From Acidobacteriota bacterium (GTDB lineage: Bacteria; Acidobacteriota; UBA6911; RPQK01; JAJDTT01), in the NCBI GenBank assembly GCA_965263035.1, contig OZ253580.1:4992001-5056000 (forward strand): DNA of 64,000 bases. Direction: 5' to 3'. Position 1 is the first letter of the stretch. Each line of letters starts with the position of its first letter. The translations under genes were made by a program, and so were the position numbers. Below are positions 18,538-64,000 of the stretch, piece after piece. The notes under the pieces were generated by a model. The model saw nothing but the letters and a program-made list of their open reading frames with translations, was not told the origin of the DNA and searched no databases.

Positions 18538-20187
18538 GTTCTCATCCAGAAAGTCGGGTTTGGGGGGATTGGGTAGCCCGAGGAAGGCCGGAGAAACTGC
18601 AATAAACCGGCTCGATGGGGGCCGAAAGCAGGAAATTCAAGTCCGTTGAGAGCCGATCCCGGATTTTGAAGACACGAGTCCCTGACGGGGCATCGGCAAT
18701 GGATTCAAGCTGCGCTTACAGCAGCAGGCGGGCCAGCACCAGCAGGTTGAAGCTGACGATCGAGAGGTACACATATTGCTGGAAGTGGGGCCAGCCCTTC
18801 CAGGTGCAGCGTCCGAGTCCGAACACTCGCTTGAGCCACGAGATGCACCCTTCGATGCCGGCCCGGAAGCGTCGCAGTTGCCGGTAGACCCAACTGGAGC
18901 GCACCATCTCAGGGACCTTCAGTCCGCGTTTCTTGGCAAAGGCGACATCCTGGACGCCTTGCTTTTTGGCCCACTCCAGATTGGAGCGGCTGGCAAAGCA
19001 TCCGTCACAACTGACCTGTCGAGGCCAACGGCCGTACAGATCATACTGGCGCCGCATCCAGGGCTGGAACTGACCGGCATCGTTAGGGTTCCCCCGCACC
19101 ACCTCAGCATCCAGCATCAGGCCGGAGACGCCGCCGGTCAGAAACAGCTTGTGCCCAAAGACCGTTTCCCGGCGCTTCTTTTTGATGATGTCGGTGTGCT
19201 CCTCAAACAAGGAGAGGACTTTCTCGGCGGCCGGAACCGTCTCTCCCCGCAGCACACGCCGCTCGGTCTGGTCGATGATCTTCTTCGTCAAATCCAAGTA
19301 ATGGCGCAGTTGACCGGCGATGACCAGACTGGGCAGGTCGGTGAACCGATCCGCTTGCCGCAGCGCCCTCTCGGCGTCATGAGCGGTCTTGCGAGCGACC
19401 TTCAACAGATCCCGATAGGCTCGCAGACGACGCTTGCCCCGGTGGTTGGCGATGTTCGCAACAGCGTCGCTTGGCCCGGCGCCGGTGATCCGAAAAGACG
19501 ATCTTGTGAGGTCGGGCCAAGCGGCGCAGCCAGCGGGTGAGGACTCGAACCGAGTCGGACAACATCTGGGAATCCCGCGGATAGGGGATGGGGCTTTCCA
19601 CGGCCGTGGCATCGGCTCGGATCTTCCGTCCCCGTTCCAGTCCCTGGCCCTCCGCCCATTGCACCAGGAGCCGGTTGATCTGCTGCCAGGTTCCGGCTTG
19701 AATCCGGCTGATGTTGTCCTGGAGGCAGGAGGCACTGGGGGTCCATTGCCAAGGGAGTCGAGCGAAGCGACGAAAGCTCTGAGAGTCGCTCCAGAGGAAC
19801 GCCAACTTGGTGTAGGGCAGCTGATGCCAGTTCTTGAGGATGGCCGCGCGCAGGACCTGCTCTGCGGAGAGACCCGGAGCCCCCTGGCCTGAACCGGCGG
19901 TGTCACACAGATCGTGTAGAACCAGACCCAGGATCGAGGGGTTGTCATCCAAGATCTTGGAAACAGCTTTCAATTCCTGGGCGAGTCGGTGACCGGGCCA
20001 GAGCCCGGAGAGCGGAAGCTGGTTTTCCCGTTTTCGACGCATTGTTCAAGCCCCCGGTTTTGTGTAAGTCATTTGGTTGCTTTTATTTAGCACCAATAGA
20101 CTACCAAACGACTATGACAGAATCGGGGCTTGAAAATGCCTCCTTAGTCCTTATTTCCCAATAACTTACGGCTTTCCGGATGAGAAC
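18538..20187 (-). mobile_element. IS element (ISNCY/IS5-like DDE), 1650 bp
   Basis: TIRs GTTCTCATCCAGAAAG / CTTTCCGGATGAGAAC with TAGCTA on both flanks. The palindromic target makes the exact ends ambiguous. Confidence 0.85.
18716..20042 (-). pseudogene. DDE transposase with a frameshift near 19460
   Basis: N-terminal half in ORF 19377-20042 (RADATAVE..I.YP.DS). C-terminal half in frame 18716-19948 (KVLSLFEEHTDII, FGHK, DGCFAS, FRAGIEG.IS.LKR). Confidence 0.85.
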
Positions 20188-59017: not shown

Positions 59018-60869
59018 ATGAGCCTTCCAGACATCAATTTCGAGAAAATTCGTCCGTTTGACGGAAGCCGTCACGCAGGGTTCGAGGAAATGTGTTGCCA
59101 ACTCGTCTATTTGGAACCAGCATCCTCGGGCAAAACTTTCCACAGGAAAGGCCACGGTGGCGACGCAGGCGTCGAATGCTACCGTCGGCGTGCAGACGGG
59201 ACGGAAGTGGGATGGCAGGCCAAATATCTCTTTCACTGGAATGACGGTCTCAAGGCGCAGCTCGACAATTCGATACGCACGGCATTGGATAAGCACCCGC
59301 ATCTCGTTGAGTACGTCGTCTGCCTTCCGTTCAATCTTTCCGATTCTCGAACCGGCAAGGGCAAGACCGCACGAACGAAGTGGGACACTTGGTGCACGAA
59401 ATGGGAGGAGTTCACCGCTACGCAGCAGCGTCACCTGACAATCACTTTGTGGGGCAAGAGCGAATTCAGCGCTCGGTTGGCTCGCGAAGACCCCGCCTAC
59501 TCCGGTCGACTTCTCTATTGGTTCGGGACCGAAGCTGTCACGTCAGCTTGGTTCAATGAGAAGTTTGGAACGGCAAGGGCGTCTCTGGGCAGCCGATACA
59601 CTCCCGAGACAAACGTCGAACTCCCAATTCGACAGGACTTTGTCGCCTTCGCCCGCCATCCTGAGCTTCAGCGGCAGATTGACGGGTGGCTATTCCGGGT
59701 CACCAAGAAAGGAAGCGATGCCGTAGATGCCATACGCAGGACGGGTTCGGAGGCAGCCGAAATCTATTCCGAGCCTCTGGCCGAGGCAATTCGTGCTCTG
59801 ACGTCTTTACTTGACGGGGATCCAATCGGTCCCGACCAACCCTATCCTGTAGACGATTGGACGTCCGAAGTATCAAGCTGTCTCAATCTTGCCAGAAAGG
59901 CCCTTCGCTGGTCCTACGACCTTCCGCCTTCCAAGCCCGGACGCATGGGGATCAGGCCCGAACAGCAAGCGCAACATACCCTTCATGAGCTGATGGAAGT
60001 ATTGCATGAAATCAAGAGGGCTCTCGCTTCGAACCGTTGGCGACTGACCAACGCGAAGGCGGTTCTGTTACAGGGCCCGGCCGGCATCGGTAAGTCCCAT
60101 TTGCTTGCCGACATCGTGGAGCACCATCTTCACGAAGGTGGTCCGGCGCTGCTCCTTCTTGGAGGTGAGTTTGTCGACAATGCGCTGTGGCCGCAGATTC
60201 GCGACCAACTCGATTGCCCACCAACGGAGCAGTTCAAGCACTTCCTCGGGAGTCTGGACGCAGCAGCGCAGGCCGTGGGCATGAGAGCAATTGTGTGCAT
60301 CGATGCTCTGAACGAACGCAACGGCATTGATGTCTGGCCGGATCGTCTCTTAGGCTTCCTCAATAGTATCGAGGCTTTCCCGCGAGTCGGCGTAATCGTG
60401 TCATGCCGCTCGACCTATGTTCGGTATGTGATCCCGGATGACCTGGATGAAGATCGGCTCTTCCTTGTTGTTCACGAAGGCTTTGCCGCGGATGGCGGAG
60501 AAGCTGCGAGGGTCTATCTCGACAAACGAGGAATGGTTCGACCTGGGGCACCTAATCTCGTTCCCGAGTTTGAAAATCCGCTTTTCTTGAAGACGTGCTG
60601 CGACTCCCTGCAAAAGGAGGGGAAAACCGAATTCCCTAAAGGTCTACGCGGCGCCACATCGATCTTCGAGTTTTATTACGAGGCAGTGACTCGATCGTTG
60701 AACCGGCGAATGAAGCTTGATCCTAATCTGGAGATCGTGCCGCAAGCAATCACAGGCTTTGCGCAATTGCTGGTGGGAGCCGGCGAGGGATATGCCCGGA
60801 AGCGCGATGCAGTTGATTTATTTGAATCAGTCCTCGCCTCGAGCGGAAGCCTTGAAAAGAGTCTGCTAG
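59018..60869 (+). pseudogene. avs2: AVAST type 2 (Avs2)-like STAND ATPase, interrupted
   Basis: N-terminal nuclease-like FEE.CCQL...GGD.GVE...GWQAKY, Walker A GPAGIGKSH, Walker B IDALNE, SCRSTY, EFENPLFLK. Plausible protein sequence ends after ~617 aa at the insertion, with no C-terminal sensor region. Confidence 0.75.
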
Positions 60870-60882
60870 CCTGCATTTCTCA

Positions 60883-62090
60883 GTGCGCCGTGGAAAGGCG
60901 CTGTTTCTCAGTGGGTGCGAATCCCACCCGGCAACTGTCGCTCCAGCCGGTAGCAGTCGGAGCGGTTCATAGAGGCAACGATATGGACTGAAGCACTCCG
61001 ATGTCAAAGGGTCGCTTTAGGCGACTCAGCGAGTCCGCAGGCCGCAACATGTGAACGCTGAGCAGGCCTCGAAACGGGTAATGCGGAAGCCGACCCGCCT
61101 GAGAAACGCACGAAGGCTGCCAGCGGTCGGGAAGCGAGCGACGCAAGCACCGGCCGGCTCCGCCGGGGTAATGGCGGTGGCATGTGGACAAGAGGGAGAC
61201 AGCAGCAACACGGGAAGCCCCGCCGGTGGCGTGGCACGCGTCAACCGGGAACCCGTGAGGGCCAGCCTGGGCCGTCGGGGTGGCGGAGAGGCCCGTAGTA
61301 CTGGAGAAGCCGGGTAACGCCGGTGGAGGGAAGGGGCCTTGGTTCGAGAACCGCGTTGGACGGGGAAAAGGACGTGAAGACTGGTGAGAACCTAGTAGCT
61401 TCAGAGAAAGTTCAGAGACTCCGGAAGACGCTCCATGCGAGCATCGAAGGAGGCTCCGGGCTTCCGGTTCTACTCGCTGTGCGACAAGGTGTGGCGGTTG
61501 GACGTGCTCCGTGTGGCCTGGCAGGAGGTCCGCCGCAACGGCGGGTCGGCCGGGGTGGACGGGGAGGCGATCGCCGACATCGAGTCGTCGGGGGTGGACG
61601 GGTGGCTCGGGGAACTGGCGCGGGACCTGAAGGAAGGGACCTACCGGCCCAACGCGGTGCGGCAGGTTCTGATCCCGAAGAAGCAACGCGGGAAGTTCCG
61701 GCCTTTGGGCATTCCGTGTGTGCGGGATCGGGTGGCGCAGACGGCGGCAATGTTGGTGTTGTCGCCGATCTTCGAAGCCGATCTGGCCCCGGAACAATAT
61801 GCCTATCGGCCGGGCCGGAGCGCGGGCGATGCCGTCAAGCACGTGCACCGACTGCTGAACCGGGGCCACCGCGAGGTGGTGGACGCCGACCTGACGGACT
61901 ACTTCGGCCAGATCCCCCATGCCCAACTGATCAAGTCCGTGGCCCGCCGCATCAGTGATGGGCGGGTGGTGGGTTGGATCAAGGCTTGGTTGGAGATGGC
62001 GGTGGAGGAAGAGGACGGCTGCGGCGGACGACGCCGAACGACCCGGGCGCGGCAAGAGAGGAAAGGGACCCCGCAAGGGGCGCCCATTAC
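60883..62090 (+). mobile_element. Group II intron, 5' part (domains I-IV with truncated RT)
   Basis: GTGCG 5' end, GCGAATCCC hairpin, GCCGACC...GAAGGC EBS1 stem, GAAGCCGGGTAACGCCGGTGGAGGGAAGGGGCC domain III-type block, then the RT ORF. Domains V and VI are not in the window. Confidence 0.88.
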
Positions 62091-63747
62091 GCCCCCAACG
62101 CAAAAGGCAACTTTGGGAAAAAGGGCTCGGCTGCGACGAATTCGGAGCCAGTTTGCCGGGCGAGGAACCGCCCGCTTCCGTCACCGGTATCGAATGGCGA
62201 ATCGTGATCTCCCCGTCGTCCACCAGGACTTCCTTCACCAGTGCGCGTAGCACCTTCTGCCGCTCCCTGACCCCCAGCGTCCCGGCGCCGGCCCGCAACC
62301 GTTCCCGGAAACTCTCCAGCGTCTCGGCGACCCGCAGGTGCCGCTCCCGTTCCTCGACGGCGCTCTCGACCGCTTCCAGTTCGGCCTCCACCGCCTGCGT
62401 CCGACTCCGTAGCGGCGGCATCCGCCGGCGCAACTCGTCCAGCCCGATCAATTCCTCCTGGTATGCCGTCACCAGCCGGGCGCCCGCTCGTTCCAACCGC
62501 TTCCGCTCCCCTCGCAGTTCCGCCACCCGCCGCTGTCGCGGATCCGTCCGGCGCCCCGCCTCCAGCCGACGCTCCAGCTCGGCCTCCAGTAGCGCCGGAT
62601 CTTCCAGCAACCTCACCAACTCGCCCCACACCACCGCGTCCAGCCGGTCCTGGCGCACCGGCCGGCTCGCGCAACGCGCGCCCCCCTCGTAGCGCCAGCC
62701 GTCCGTGCCCAGGCAGCGGTAGTAGTACAGCTTCCGCTTCGTCGTCCGCGTCGACGCCCGGTAGTACGCATATCCGCAGCGCCGGCACACCAACATGCCC
62801 TGCAGCAGCGTCGGCTCCTTCGTCCGTCGCGTTGAATGCCGCTTGTTCGCCTCCAACTGCTCGCGCGCCTGCTCGAACCGCTCCGCGCTCACCAGCGCCG
62901 GAACCGGGATCTCGATCCACTCCTCCCTCGGCCGCTCTTGCCCGGCCACCCGGCGGCTCGCGTATTTCCCCGGCCTCCGCAAGGGCCGCGTCACCCTCTG
63001 CCTCTCGCCGGTCCCGGTCTTGCCGTAACCGGCCCGCCCGGAGTAGGCCGGATTGCGCAGCATGGCCCAGATCACCGAGCGGTCCCAGCGTTGCTTGCCG
63101 GTCCGCGTCGGAATCCCCTGCTCCGTCAGCCGGCGCGCGATCTCCCCGATGCTGCAGGGATCCTGCGCATACCAGTCGAACACCTGCCGCACCACCTCCG
63201 CTTCCCGCGCCAAGACCTCGTAGCGCGCCTCCATTCCTTCGCTCCGCTTCACGTACCGGTACCCGTACGGCGCTCCCGAGAGCACGCTCGGCGAACCCTG
63301 GCGCGCCTTGTAGCGCTTGCCCCGCCGGCTGCGCTCCATGATTTGCGCCCGCTCGTACTCGGCGATCATGCCCTGCACCTGCACCAGCAGGCGCTGCTGG
63401 GGCGTCTCCGCCGCCGGCGTCTGCACGAACTCGCACGCCACCCCGCTCCGCTCGAACTCCTCCAGCAACAGCACCTGGTAGGCGTACTTGCGGCTGAGCC
63501 GGTCCGGCGACAGCACCAGCACCGCCTCGAGGCGCCCCTCCGCGGCCAGGTCGCGCACGGCCTCCAGGCCGGGCCGGTCCAGGCGCGCCCCGCTGAAGCC
63601 GTCGTCCTCGAACACCCACTCAGGCGGGACGACGTAACCGCGCTTGCAGGCGCGCTCTCGAAGGGCGGCCGTCTGGCTGGCGATCGTCCCGCTCTCCTTC
63701 TGGCGGTCCGAGGACACTCGGGCGTAGATGGCGGCGACTCTGGCCAT
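60967..63747 (-). CDS. Large serine recombinase (recognisable part ~62090-63747, frame reads on through the antisense intron)
   Basis: AIYARVSS catalytic Ser, DDGFSG, RPGL, DRLSR, PYGY, LRNPAY.G, zinc ribbon C..CG/YYRC and coiled coil. Confidence 0.92.
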   Translation of the reverse strand: MARVAAIYARVSSDRQKESGTIASQTAALRERACKRGYVVPPEWVFEDDGFSGARLDRPGLEAVRDLAAEGRLEAVLVLSPDRLSRKYAYQVLLLEEFERSGVACEFVQTPAAETPQQRLLVQVQGMIAEYERAQIMERSRRGKRYKARQGSPSVLSGAPYGYRYVKRSEGMEARYEVLAREAEVVRQVFDWYAQDPCSIGEIARRLTEQGIPTRTGKQRWDRSVIWAMLRNPAYSGRAGYGKTGTGERQRVTRPLRRPGKYASRRVAGQERPREEWIEIPVPALVSAERFEQAREQLEANKRHSTRRTKEPTLLQGMLVCRRCGYAYYRASTRTTKRKLYYYRCLGTDGWRYEGGARCASRPVRQDRLDAVVWGELVRLLEDPALLEAELERRLEAGRRTDPRQRRVAELRGERKRLERAGARLVTAYQEELIGLDELRRRMPPLRSRTQAVEAELEAVESAVEERERHLRVAETLESFRERLRAGAGTLGVRERQKVLRALVKEVLVDDGEITIRHSIPVTEAGGSSPGKLAPNSSQPSPFSQSCLLRWGRNGRPLRGPFPLLPRPGRSASSAAAVLFLHRHLQPSLDPTHHPPITDAAGHGLDQLGMGDLAEVVRQVGVHHLAVAPVQQSVHVLDGIARAPARPIGILFRGQIGFEDRRQHQHCRRLRHPIPHTRNAQRPELPALLLRDQNLPHRVGPVGPFLQVPRQFPEPPVHPRRLDVGDRLPVHPGRPAVAADLLPGHTEHVQPPHLVAQRVEPEARSLLRCSHGASSGVSELSLKLLGSHQSSRPFPRPTRFSNQGPFPPPALPGFSSTTGLSATPTAQAGPHGFPVDACHATGGASRVAAVSLLSTCHRHYPGGAGRCLRRSLPDRWQPSCVSQAGRLPHYPFRGLLSVHMLRPADSLSRLKRPFDIGVLQSISLPL
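61374..62090 (+). pseudogene. ltrA: Group II intron reverse transcriptase/maturase, frameshifted (~61440) and truncated at PQG
   Basis: RFYSL.DKV, N.GSAGVDG, IPK, RPLGIP.VRDRVAQ, YAYRPGRS, VVDADL.DYF..IPH, GTPQGAPI. YADD motif absent from the window. Confidence 0.9.
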
Positions 63748-63889
63748 GGTTCAAGTCCTCCTCTCGCGCGAGCCGGACCGGCTGCTGCCGGACGGGGGCG
63801 AGTCGTTCGTAGGCGCCGGCCAGCCGGTCGGGCAGATGGCGGTCGAAGCGGTACTCGAAATGCACCGCCAACGGCCCATCCTCAGCCAT
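63620..63889 (-). CDS. Small hypothetical protein overlapping the recombinase start
   Basis: Start overlaps the upstream gene's stop (CATGGCTGA). Sequence begins V.FEYRFDR...LA.AYE.L.P. Coupled operon arrangement. Confidence 0.5.
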   Translation of the reverse strand: MAEDGPLAVHFEYRFDRHLPDRLAGAYERLAPVRQQPVRLAREEDLNHGQSRRHLRPSVLGPPEGERDDRQPDGRPSRARLQARLRRPA

Positions 63890-64000
63890 GCGGCTCCCGG
63901 GAGGCGAGCCAAGCGCGCAGGGCCCGCGCCACCACTTCGCTGACGGCGGTGCCCGTCGCGGCCGAACGCTCCCGCAAGCGTCGGATCAGGCCGCGCGGCA
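63882..64000 (-). CDS. 3' end of a ribbon-helix-helix-like protein (partial)
   Basis: Reads PRGLIRRLRERSAATGTAVSEVVARALRAWLASREPHG*, a CopG/RHH-like pattern. Runs off the window end. Confidence 0.55.
   Translation of the reverse strand, partial: PRGLIRRLRERSAATGTAVSEVVARALRAWLASREPHG

What the first reader, a model, noticed from the sequence alone, without database searches (positions are those of the whole stretch)
62060..64000. Large serine recombinase element inserted at the conserved PQG motif of a group II intron RT
Seen: the RT frame is canonical up to GTPQGAPI (~62088) and then switches abruptly into the antisense 3' end of an LSR. A small ORF and an RHH-like gene form a coupled operon upstream of the LSR. 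YADD and intron domains V/VI are absent from the window. Inference: this is a hyperparasitic integrative element whose attB is one of the most conserved RT motifs. It would inactivate retrohoming while integrated, and excision could restore the RT frame at that point (a separate frameshift near 61440 remains in this copy).
Basis: partly seen in the sequence, partly recalled or inferred. Interest (0 to 1): 0.82.

Follow-up and report, generated by a model that had tools for sequence, protein, structure and literature searches.

The report
Serine-recombinase mini-element splitting an intron RT gene
A 2.2-kb jumping gene driven by a large serine recombinase sits exactly inside a conserved motif of a group II intron's reverse-transcriptase gene, and its many relatives in other bacteria sit at the same codon, so it is a parasite of another mobile element.

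Summary
The window lies in a 6.2-Mb single-contig genome, so the missing part could be read. A 2226-bp element (window 62088-64311 plus one crossover dinucleotide, running 312 bp past the window end) splits a group II intron RT gene between ...GTPQGAP and ISPLLSNLY.... The rest of the RT (YADD, maturase domain) and domains V/VI follow directly. Three other copies of this intron in the genome are unbroken at that point.

The element has 25-nt inverted ends, a promoter-like site and three genes: an HTH/RHH protein, a small protein and a large serine recombinase (LSR). The LSR reading frame leaves the element across the crossover point.

In 67 of 80 related loci from many phyla, at least one flank is RT at the same codon, in either orientation. 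90 of 120 close protein homologues carry read-through tails that decode to RT sequence.

New here:
- The two junction dinucleotides differ (AT/CT), as in 22 of 48 concordant loci.
- The small protein is predicted to bind the base of the LSR coiled coil, which makes it a candidate directionality factor.
- The whole is a four-level nest: Avs2 defence gene, then IS, then intron, then LSR element.

This scan found the same family before on other DNA. I found no paper describing it.

The parts
62088..64000 (-). LSR mini-element, the part inside the window. The whole element runs to 64311 (L009 coordinate + 60000). It is 2224 bp between the two crossover dinucleotides and 2226 bp with one of them. 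Beyond the window end lie: the rest of the RHH gene (to 64211), a promoter-like site (64249-64221, minus strand), the right inverted arm (P arm, 64286-64311), the right crossover dinucleotide CT (64312-64313), then the intron's 3' part (64314-65104: RT C-terminal half with YADD, maturase domain, domains V/VI).
   Evidence: Own-genome BLAST: window 60866-62087 and 64313-65104 are contiguous in three other intron copies. A contig joint skipping 2226 bases appears in 4 of 4 runs, and an identical element, 62087-64311, lies in other flanks in a 5657-nt contig of run X15. Promoter-like site: TTGACT-17-TATATT, 10 of 12, 2 found against 0.2 expected (consensus match only). Intron 3' part: Pfam RVT_1 126-205 and GIIM E 6e-16; Rfam Intron_gpII 35.2 bits, below its gathering score of 40; 3' end shared by the copies.
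62086..62087 (.). Crossover dinucleotide at the left junction (AT; first two bases of the RT Ile codon)
   Evidence: Junction comparison with intact copies B, C and D. The register is fixed by the symmetry of the inverted arms and by 47 related concordant loci.
62088..62113 (.). Left terminal inverted repeat (P' arm of attP). It also encodes the conserved ...LLRWGR end of the LSR.
   Evidence: the repeat finder I1: arms 62089-62113 and 64286-64310, 25 nt, 84% complementary, the longest pair found. The same arms are present in related elements.
62088..63747 (-). LSR gene: 553 codons inside the element and no stop codon inside it. As integrated, it reads on to 60967 (926 codons) through antisense RT.
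   Evidence: Catalytic Ser12 and 100+ other columns are invariant in 35 family members. It is 100% identical to P0001-P0003, which carry other tails.
63620..63889 (-). Small ORF (89 aa; conserved core about residues 10-33). Candidate recombination directionality factor.
   Evidence: tblastn hits in 65 of 80 loci at the same place. Alignment A2. No Pfam, NCBIfam, PHROG, PADLOC or PDB match. Predicted to bind the LSR.
63882..64000 (-). HTH + ribbon-helix-helix protein (109 aa), probable regulator. Only its 3' part is in the window; the gene starts at 64211.
   Evidence: Pfam RHH_1 E 2.6e-4. PHROG CopG-like repressor E 0.008. tblastn hits in 77 of 80 loci at the same place.
60884..62085 (+). Group II intron, 5' part: domains I-IV start and the RT N-terminal half (frameshifted near 61440)
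   Evidence: Rfam group-II-D1D4-4, 92 bits, E 5e-20 at 60909-61052. RVT_1. Intron 5' end GTGCG at 60884, shared by four copies.

Best explanation
This is an integrated copy of a small autonomous mobile element. An LSR moves it by conservative site-specific recombination. Its attP is a near-palindrome: two 24-25-nt inverted arms around a 2-nt crossover. Its attB is the DNA that encodes the RT motif PQG(G/A)(V/P)-(I/V/L)-SPLL(A/S)N of group II intron proteins. The crossover falls on the first two bases of the I/V/L codon.

Shown:
- the exact insert and its inverted ends;
- an intact three-domain LSR;
- empty target copies in the same genome;
- the same target codon in most relatives, in both orientations;
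- an identical element in other flanks elsewhere.

Inferred:
- The element excises as a 2226-bp circle.
- Only in that circle does the LSR frame close, 21 codons past the crossover (575 aa, against a 926-aa read-through product when integrated).
- An internal promoter drives the RHH-small ORF-LSR operon.
- The RHH/HTH protein regulates that operon.
- The small protein binds the base of the LSR coiled coil and sets the direction of recombination.
- While integrated, the element splits the RT. Precise excision would restore it, as Ile or Leu at that codon.
For: Insert and junctions. Inverted ends. LSR domains. Invariant catalytic residues.

RT halves and intron RNA on both sides.

Family, genome loci: 587 of 600 scanned stretches encode relatives, and the best 80 were kept. 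Of those 80, 47 have both flanks RT in one orientation (33 sense, 14 antisense). 4 have both flanks RT but discordant. 16 have one RT flank and the other unreadable or other. 13 have none.

Family, protein tails: of the top 120 homologues, 48 are RT-sense, 42 RT-antisense and 1 attP-like.

The targets are true group II introns of several classes. Rfam matched in 11 of the 15 loci scanned, out of the 80 held.

Circle-form ORF: it closes 18-32 codons (median 24) after the crossover in 65 of 66 elements, including this one. One truncated locus (L070) closed after 2 codons.

Conservation of the small genes: RHH in 77 of 80 loci, small ORF in 65 of 80.

Binding model for the small protein (1-50) with LSR 300-553: score 0.76, best of 3 controls 0.00. 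The mark was reached by 58 of 80 solved complexes and 2 of 110 mismatched pairs. The runs agree in at least 75% of contacts, and the partner's pLDDT is at least 69. Contacts are at LSR 368-394 and 474-521.

Recent mobility: LSRs 100% identical to this one carry three other tails (P0001-P0003).
Against: No circle junction or excision product specific to this locus was seen. Only contigs were laid, and the empty-site joint is expected from copies B-D.

The two junction dinucleotides share only the T (AT and CT). A canonical LSR needs identical dinucleotides.

13 of 80 loci show no RT flank. In 6 of these, both flanks were read as non-RT.

The element is single-copy here although three intact targets are free.

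Conservation of the circle-form tail may partly reflect DNA constraint on the attP arm rather than selection on the protein.

LSR-RDF complexes have been solved (SprA with YotN, entries listed). The binding model may therefore lean on likeness, although the small protein matches no PDB chain (best E 1.1).
Confidence: 0.9

Rival explanations
1. A low-specificity LSR transposon (TnpX/TndX-like) landed in this RT gene by chance.
For: LSR transposons with relaxed targets exist (recalled; the multi-targeting clade is described in PMC10083194, passages read). 6 of 80 loci have both flanks non-RT.
Against: 67 of 80 loci and 90 of 120 protein tails point to the same RT codon. There is no DUF4368 hit. 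The non-RT flanks seen (for example L090, L042) resemble the RT site, as expected for pseudo-sites of a specific enzyme.
Confidence: 0.03
2. The element is a domesticated developmental or regulatory switch (like skin/sigK or the fdxN element with XisF). Its excision turns the intron RT on under some condition, for the benefit of the intron or the host.
For: It is a gene-interrupting LSR element with precise ends. Excision would restore the frame. The best NCBIfam match is XisF.
Against: The XisF match is far below its cut-off (111.6 against 375 bits). The family occurs in many phyla, in many different intron classes, in both orientations, with several copies per genome and with off-target sites. 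That is the pattern of a selfish element. This RT copy also carries a frameshift.
Confidence: 0.04
3. Assembly chimera or random deletion: the LSR is joined to a truncated RT by misassembly.
Against: The contig continues with the exact remainder of the RT. The insert has inverted ends. The same boundaries appear in contigs of four runs from four studies (one of them may be the source sample). The same architecture appears in 47 other loci.
Confidence: 0.01
4. The recombinase mainly inverts the segment between its inverted ends (an invertase-type switch) rather than excising and re-integrating it.
For: The ends are inverted repeats and attP is nearly palindromic. Both orientations occur (33 sense, 14 antisense). 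The commonest dinucleotide, AT, is palindromic.
Against: Identical elements occur in unrelated flanks. Empty targets exist. One homologue reads across a joined P'-P junction (P0019). All of these need excision and integration. Inversion may still occur as a side reaction.
Confidence: 0.02

Closest known systems
Tn4451/Tn4453 (TnpX) and Tn5397 (TndX), clostridial transposons moved by an LSR (recalled; TnpX N-terminal domain is PDB 2mhc)
   Same: The LSR is the sole recombinase of a non-phage mobile element. Excision as a circle is presumed. Crossover is at a 2-nt core.
   Different: Those elements are 6-20 kb with cargo, use a GA core and have loose or different targets (recalled). This element is 2.2 kb with no cargo, has an NT/AT-type core and has one highly specific target in another mobile element. 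Sequence likeness to TnpX is limited to the catalytic domain (E 2.4e-7).
Phage and prophage serine integrases (SPbeta SprA/YokA, A118/LI, TP901-1, phiC31, Bxb1)
   Same: Same three-domain architecture. The best solved relatives are SprA (E 4e-11) and the A118 integrase C-terminal domains (E 2e-7). PHROG 'integrase' E 8e-96. A separate small directionality factor is predicted to bind the coiled-coil region.
   Different: There is no phage. The element is IS-sized. attP is almost a perfect palindrome and lies inside the 3' end of the integrase gene. attB is a motif present in many copies per genome, and both orientations are used.
Gene-interrupting LSR elements (skin/SpoIVCA in sigK, fdxN element/XisF)
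   Same: The element interrupts a coding sequence precisely, and excision would restore it.
   Different: Those are single-locus, vertically inherited and developmentally timed (recalled; passage). This family is multi-copy, spans many phyla and targets a selfish gene. The XisF model scores 111.6 against a cut-off of 375.
Insertion sequences that target other repeats or mobile DNA (IS110/IS1111 family, listing; nested group II introns)
   Same: Hyperparasitic lifestyle: a conserved sequence of another mobile element serves as a safe landing site.
   Different: The chemistry differs (serine recombinase recognising DNA by protein, not a DEDD enzyme with guide RNA, and not retrohoming).
Integration-dependent gene truncation in mycobacteriophages (attP inside a gene; recalled, not checked here)
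   Same: The crossover site lies inside an element gene, so the integrated and free forms encode different C-termini.
   Different: There the affected gene is the repressor and the enzyme is a tyrosine integrase. Here it is the serine recombinase itself.

Membership tests
Large serine recombinase (serine integrase) family | N-terminal resolvase-type catalytic domain with the nucleophilic serine | tested here: met
   PF00239 E 7.2e-32, residues 5-151. Ser12 and Arg10 are invariant in 35 relatives.
Large serine recombinase (serine integrase) family | Recombinase domain plus zinc-ribbon domain after the catalytic domain | tested here: met
   PF07508 E 5.1e-23 (182-300). PF13408 E 2.8e-11 (314-377).
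Large serine recombinase (serine integrase) family | Coiled-coil insertion in the zinc-ribbon domain | tested here: inconclusive
   About 120 residues (about 380-500) lie between the zinc ribbon and the last conserved strand (ITIRHSIP). The complex model places the partner at both ends of this stretch. No separate fold or coiled-coil test was run.
Large serine recombinase (serine integrase) family | att sites with an identical 2-nt crossover core in attL and attR | tested here: inconclusive
   Here AT against CT, with only the T shared. Among 48 concordant loci, 26 are equal and 22 unequal.
Large serine recombinase (serine integrase) family | Conservative recombination through a circular or free attP form | not testable with these tools
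   Only contigs could be laid. One homologue (P0019) reads across a joined junction.
TnpX/TndX-type or multi-targeting LSR transposons | Relaxed target choice; DUF4368 common in that clade (PMC10083194, passage) | tested here: not met
   No DUF4368 hit. 67 of 80 loci are at one RT codon.
IS607 family (small serine transposases) | Equivalog model of the IS607 transposase; no inverted ends | tested here: not met
   NF033518 scores 28.8 bits against a cut-off of 110. This element has 25-nt inverted ends.
XisF / Ccr cassette recombinases | Score above the NCBIfam equivalog cut-off | tested here: not met
   XisF 111.6 against 375. CcrB 85.6 against 900. CcrC 77.2 against 900.
Group II intron (the target) | RT with a maturase domain, inside a ribozyme with domains I-VI | tested here: met
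   RVT_1 and GIIM on the two halves and on intact copy D. Rfam D1D4-4 at 92 bits. The domain V/VI match is below its gathering score (35.2 against 40), but its sequence is shared with the other copies up to a common 3' end.

The most novel reading that the evidence does not exclude
The element uses group II introns not only as a safe landing site but also as a vehicle. It sits in the ORF loop (domain IV) and leaves the ribozyme domains intact. RT/maturase could come in trans from an intact sister copy (copy D in this genome). The 4.2-kb composite intron could then splice and retrohome, which would copy a DNA-recombinase element through an RNA intermediate. A second unusual property may go with this: a crossover that tolerates a mismatch at one base of the core dinucleotide. 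That would let one enzyme use Ile, Val and Leu codon variants of the RT motif.
Probability: 0.1. Interest if true: 0.9.

Novelty: new variant of a known kind. Interest (0 to 1): 0.74.

Why it matters
It adds a layer to the ecology of selfish DNA: a DNA-recombinase element specialised on a retroelement's own enzyme gene, found across many bacterial phyla.

It is also a compact natural integration system. It comprises about 575 aa of LSR, a roughly 50-bp palindromic attP, a defined attB and a candidate directionality factor of no known family. Relatives occur in cultured strains (Nitrococcus mobilis, Sinorhizobium, Bradyrhizobium, Paraburkholderia), so it can be tested at the bench.

The unequal junction dinucleotides raise a testable question about how strict the core-matching rule of serine integrases really is.

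For annotation, these elements produce LSR 'proteins' of very variable length (546-827 aa) and split RT genes. Both are easy to misread as pseudogenes or fusions.

Tried and rejected
The repeat finder with the default seed missed the terminal repeat because the longest exact run is 7 nt. Seed 7 found it.

tblastn with one RT as query left many loci without a hit. Translating the flanks at the located junctions showed RT motifs in several of them.

A first regular-expression census of protein tails under-called the sense class. It was replaced by a position-specific rule. Of its 24 'other' tails, at least 7 are RT-type by eye once the anchor is corrected, but they are not counted.

I tested for the 5-bp outward shift of the outer motif in attP relative to attB, which is expected for LSRs (recalled). 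The inner 8 nt match best in register for both B arms. The outer part of the B' arm matches best at +5 (0.37), but -1 is nearly as good (0.36), and the B arm shows no clear shift. I make no claim from this.

Read laying showed no circle junction. Only contigs were available, and contigs cannot show rare forms. Depths there are not copy numbers and were not used.

Seven literature searches found no description of LSR elements in intron RT genes. Passages read in PMC4853749, PMC9203015, PMC6907783 and PMC10083194 did not bear on it. The supplements of PMC10083194, which list LSR target genes, could not be seen and might include RT targets.

The protein-atlas, structure-prediction and representative-library searches were not used.
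Full report
**Where the window lies.** The window is bases 4992001-5056000 of a 6,198,070-base single-contig genome. The sequence beyond the window end could therefore be read (L009 = window 60001-80000; whole genome). Coordinates above 64000 in this report are window coordinates carried on into that sequence.

**The observation.** On the + strand an RT frame runs from about 61435 and reads ...RKGTPQGAP, then I, at 62085-62088. After that it loses all RT likeness. Pfam places this piece on RVT_1 positions 1-124 of 205. From 62088 the minus strand carries the end of a gene that starts at 63747. That gene has the three Pfam domains of an LSR: Resolvase E 7e-32, Recombinase E 5e-23, Zn_ribbon_recom E 3e-11.

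BLAST of window 60500-84000 against the genome shows three further copies of the intron:
- B at C1:5536883-5538891;
- C at 985509 downwards;
- D at 5841463-5843472.

In these copies, window 60866-62087 and 64313-65104 are contiguous. The insert is therefore window 62088-64311 plus one dinucleotide, 2226 bp in all. Its last 312 bp lie past the window end.

Directly after the insert come three things:
- the rest of the RT (SPLLSNLY...YADDFVVL; RVT_1 positions 126-205 and the GIIM maturase domain, E 6e-16);
- a domain V/VI match (Rfam Intron_gpII, 35.2 bits, below its gathering score of 40);
- an intron 3' end shared by all copies.

**The frameshift.** The frameshift near 61440 is real. Copy D has an open frame of 471 codons through this point, while A, B and C share a one-base difference (table 4).

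**Anatomy of the insert.** The intact site reads ...GCGCCCAT|CTCACCGC.... The left junction keeps AT and the right junction has CT, so only the T is common to both. The ends are inverted repeats: 62089-62113 and 64286-64310, 25 nt, 84% complementary, the longest inverted pair in the region.

Reading on the minus strand, the element holds in order:
- a sigma-70-like match at 64249-64221 (10 of 12; 2 sites found against 0.2 expected);
- a 109-aa protein with an HTH-like N-terminal half and a ribbon-helix-helix C-terminal half (RHH_1 E 2.6e-4; CopG-like PHROG E 0.008);
- an 89-aa ORF whose start overlaps the end of the RHH gene and whose end overlaps the LSR start by 128 nt;
- the LSR.

The LSR frame has no stop codon inside the element. 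As integrated it runs on for 926 codons through the antisense of the RT. With the two ends joined it closes 21 codons past the crossover, giving 575 aa.

**The family.** The LSR has very many close relatives. A capped search returned 8000 proteins at E below 1e-20. The best 120 are 59-100% identical over about the first 550 residues but are 454-827 residues long.

The differences in length come from the tails after a conserved ...YLLRxG(S/R) end, which is the translation of the left inverted arm. I applied a position-specific rule derived from how RT codons read in the LSR frame. Of the 120 tails:
- 48 decode to the sense strand of ...SPLL(A/S)N...;
- 42 decode to the antisense of G-x-PQG;
- 1 (P0019) reads across a joined P'-P junction;
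- 24 are other (at least 7 of these are RT-type by eye once the anchor is corrected);
- 4 are too short, and 1 has no anchor.

The best 80 loci come from Acidobacteriota, Alpha-, Gamma- and Deltaproteobacteria, Gemmatimonadota, Verrucomicrobiota and Binataceae. Some are cultured strains.

I located both element ends in these loci by the arm motif and its inverted copy, then translated the flanks. Most elements are 2195-2305 bp with 24-nt inverted arms. Of the 80 loci:
- 47 have RT on both sides at the same codon and in one orientation (33 with the LSR sense to the RT, 14 antisense);
- 4 have RT on both sides but in discordant orientation (L043, L045, L074, L075), which indicates rearrangement between copies;
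- 16 have one RT flank, with the other unreadable or different;
- 13 have no RT flank, and in 6 of these (L042, L047, L048, L073, L088, L090) both flanks were read as non-RT.

Some of the non-RT flanks resemble the RT site.

I scanned 15 of the 80 loci with Rfam. Of these, 11 have group II intron RNA matches above the gathering score, from five different D1-D4 families. The element is therefore not tied to one intron lineage.

**How it most likely works.** The anatomy is that of a serine-integrase system reduced to IS size. The recombinase would bind the two arms of a nearly palindromic attP on an excised circle. It would pair attP with the RT-motif attB and exchange strands at the first two bases of the I/V/L codon.

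The half-site consensus from 46 concordant loci shows a shared inner motif (xACxCC) in register in all four half-sites.

Orientation in LSR systems is set by the core dinucleotide (established knowledge, recalled). Here the commonest core is the palindromic AT (45 of 96 junctions), which fits the use of both orientations.

The circle-form frame closes 18-32 codons (median 24) past the crossover in 65 of 66 elements, apart from one truncated locus that closed after 2 codons. The tail is alike across the family, with an ...NAKGNF... stretch inside the arm and an F-x-F-(D/E)-R stretch beyond it. When integrated, the extension varies from 0 to 617 codons. The native C-terminus is therefore encoded only by the joined form. 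Whether selection on the protein or on the DNA site explains the conservation is open.

**The small proteins.** The RHH/HTH gene is present at the same place in 77 of 80 loci, and the small ORF in 65 of 80. The small ORF has a conserved core (LEYxFDRLLxxKLxQAYxLLVP). It matches no Pfam, NCBIfam, PHROG, PADLOC or PDB entry.

A complex model of its first 50 residues with LSR residues 300-553 supports binding:
- score 0.76, best of 3 controls 0.00;
- the mark was reached by 58 of 80 solved complexes and 2 of 110 mismatched pairs;
- the runs agree in at least 75% of contacts, and the partner's pLDDT is at least 69.

The contacts lie at LSR 368-394 and 474-521. These are the two feet of the presumed coiled coil and the last conserved strand. 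Directionality factors of other serine integrases act in this region (recalled). LSR-factor complexes have been solved (SprA with YotN, entries), so the pass may partly reflect likeness. I take the small protein as the candidate directionality factor and the RHH protein as a regulator. Both assignments are inferences.

**Evidence of recent movement.** Three proteins 100% identical to this LSR over 553 residues have other tails:
- P0001 is in the same intron family and the same orientation. Its intron copy lacks the frameshift, and its junction codon is Lys instead of Asn, which implies a CT or TT core at that junction.
- P0002 is in the same intron family in the opposite orientation.
- P0003 is in a different RT.

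In run X15 a 5657-nt contig holds the element (62087-64311, no differences) between other flanks. These are separate DNA integrations. That argues against simple copying of one composite intron.

In this genome, however, the element is single-copy while three intact targets remain free.

**Context.** The intron sits 17 nt inside the left end of an IS with a DDE_Tnp_1_4 transposase (E 4e-149; repeat 65105-66860, at least 13 copies; IS ends). The IS in turn splits a gene. Removing 5991 nt (1770 IS + 1995 intron + 2226 element) gives one 1519-codon frame. The two parts match the PADLOC Avs2 model end to end (profile 2-612, E 3e-213; profile 629-1499, E 2e-290). The locus is thus a four-level nest: defence gene, IS, intron, LSR element.

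**What remains unexplained.** The two junction cores differ here (AT and CT). They also differ in 22 of 48 concordant loci, this one included: 15 at the first base in RT sense, 6 at the second, 1 at both.

One explanation is that integration tolerates a one-base mismatch. Each junction would then keep one parental strand after replication. This predicts exactly such unequal pairs and fits P0001. The alternative is exchange between copies in different introns.

For canonical serine integrases a mismatched core blocks recombination (recalled). This point deserves a direct test.

**Comparison and novelty.** By domain content this is an LSR. It fails the equivalog models for XisF, CcrA/B/C and IS607, and it lacks the DUF4368 domain of the multi-targeting clade (PMC10083194, passages). 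It works like a phage serine integrase, but it is an IS-sized, cargo-free element that targets a motif of another mobile element.

Seven full-text searches found no description of it. Supplements could not be read.

Earlier agents of this scan reported the same family at least twelve times on other genomes. One of those reports is marked 'part of it fell', without saying which part. I therefore re-derived each claim used here from my own calls.

Noticed in passing
window 59018-60865 and L009 6861-9568 (window-extrapolated 66861-69568): The gene split by the IS/intron/LSR nest is an Avs2-type antiviral STAND NTPase (PADLOC PDLC02164, E 2.8e-213 and 1.9e-290, profile 2-612 and 629-1499 of 1504). 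Removing 5991 nt gives one 1519-codon frame. A defence gene has therefore been inactivated by mobile DNA.
   Followed up: partly
window 60866-60883 and L009 5105-6860: A 1.77-kb IS with a 470-aa DDE_Tnp_1_4 transposase is present in at least 13 near-identical copies in the genome. The group II intron sits 17 nt inside its left inverted end, and intron copy C sits in an IS end too. The intron may therefore home into this IS.
   Followed up: partly
L009 about 19255-19425: A roughly 165-bp repeat has well over 150 BLAST matches at 85-97% identity scattered over the genome. It looks like a MITE or REP-type element.
   Followed up: no
G000:C1:2512986-2513322: A fifth, partial copy of the intron: only its first 337 nt, at 94% identity.
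   Followed up: no
L043, L045, L074, L075: These elements have two flanks that are both RT N-halves or both RT C-halves, in opposite orientation. This is the pattern expected from recombination or inversion between two element copies in different introns.
   Followed up: no
L016 (ends 4750 bp apart) and L025 (3428 bp): Family members whose ends lie much further apart than 2.2 kb. They probably carry a further insertion, that is, deeper nesting.
   Followed up: no
L046, L047 (Nitrococcus mobilis Nb-231), L062, L072, L077, L080, L081: Family members are present in cultured, named strains of Nitrococcus, Sinorhizobium, Bradyrhizobium, Mesorhizobium, Rhizobium and Paraburkholderia. These could serve for bench tests.
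   Followed up: no
window 61441-61444: Three of the four intron copies (A, B, C) share the one-base frameshift in the RT N-terminus, and only copy D is open. An ATG at 61435 could still give an N-terminally shortened RT.
   Followed up: partly
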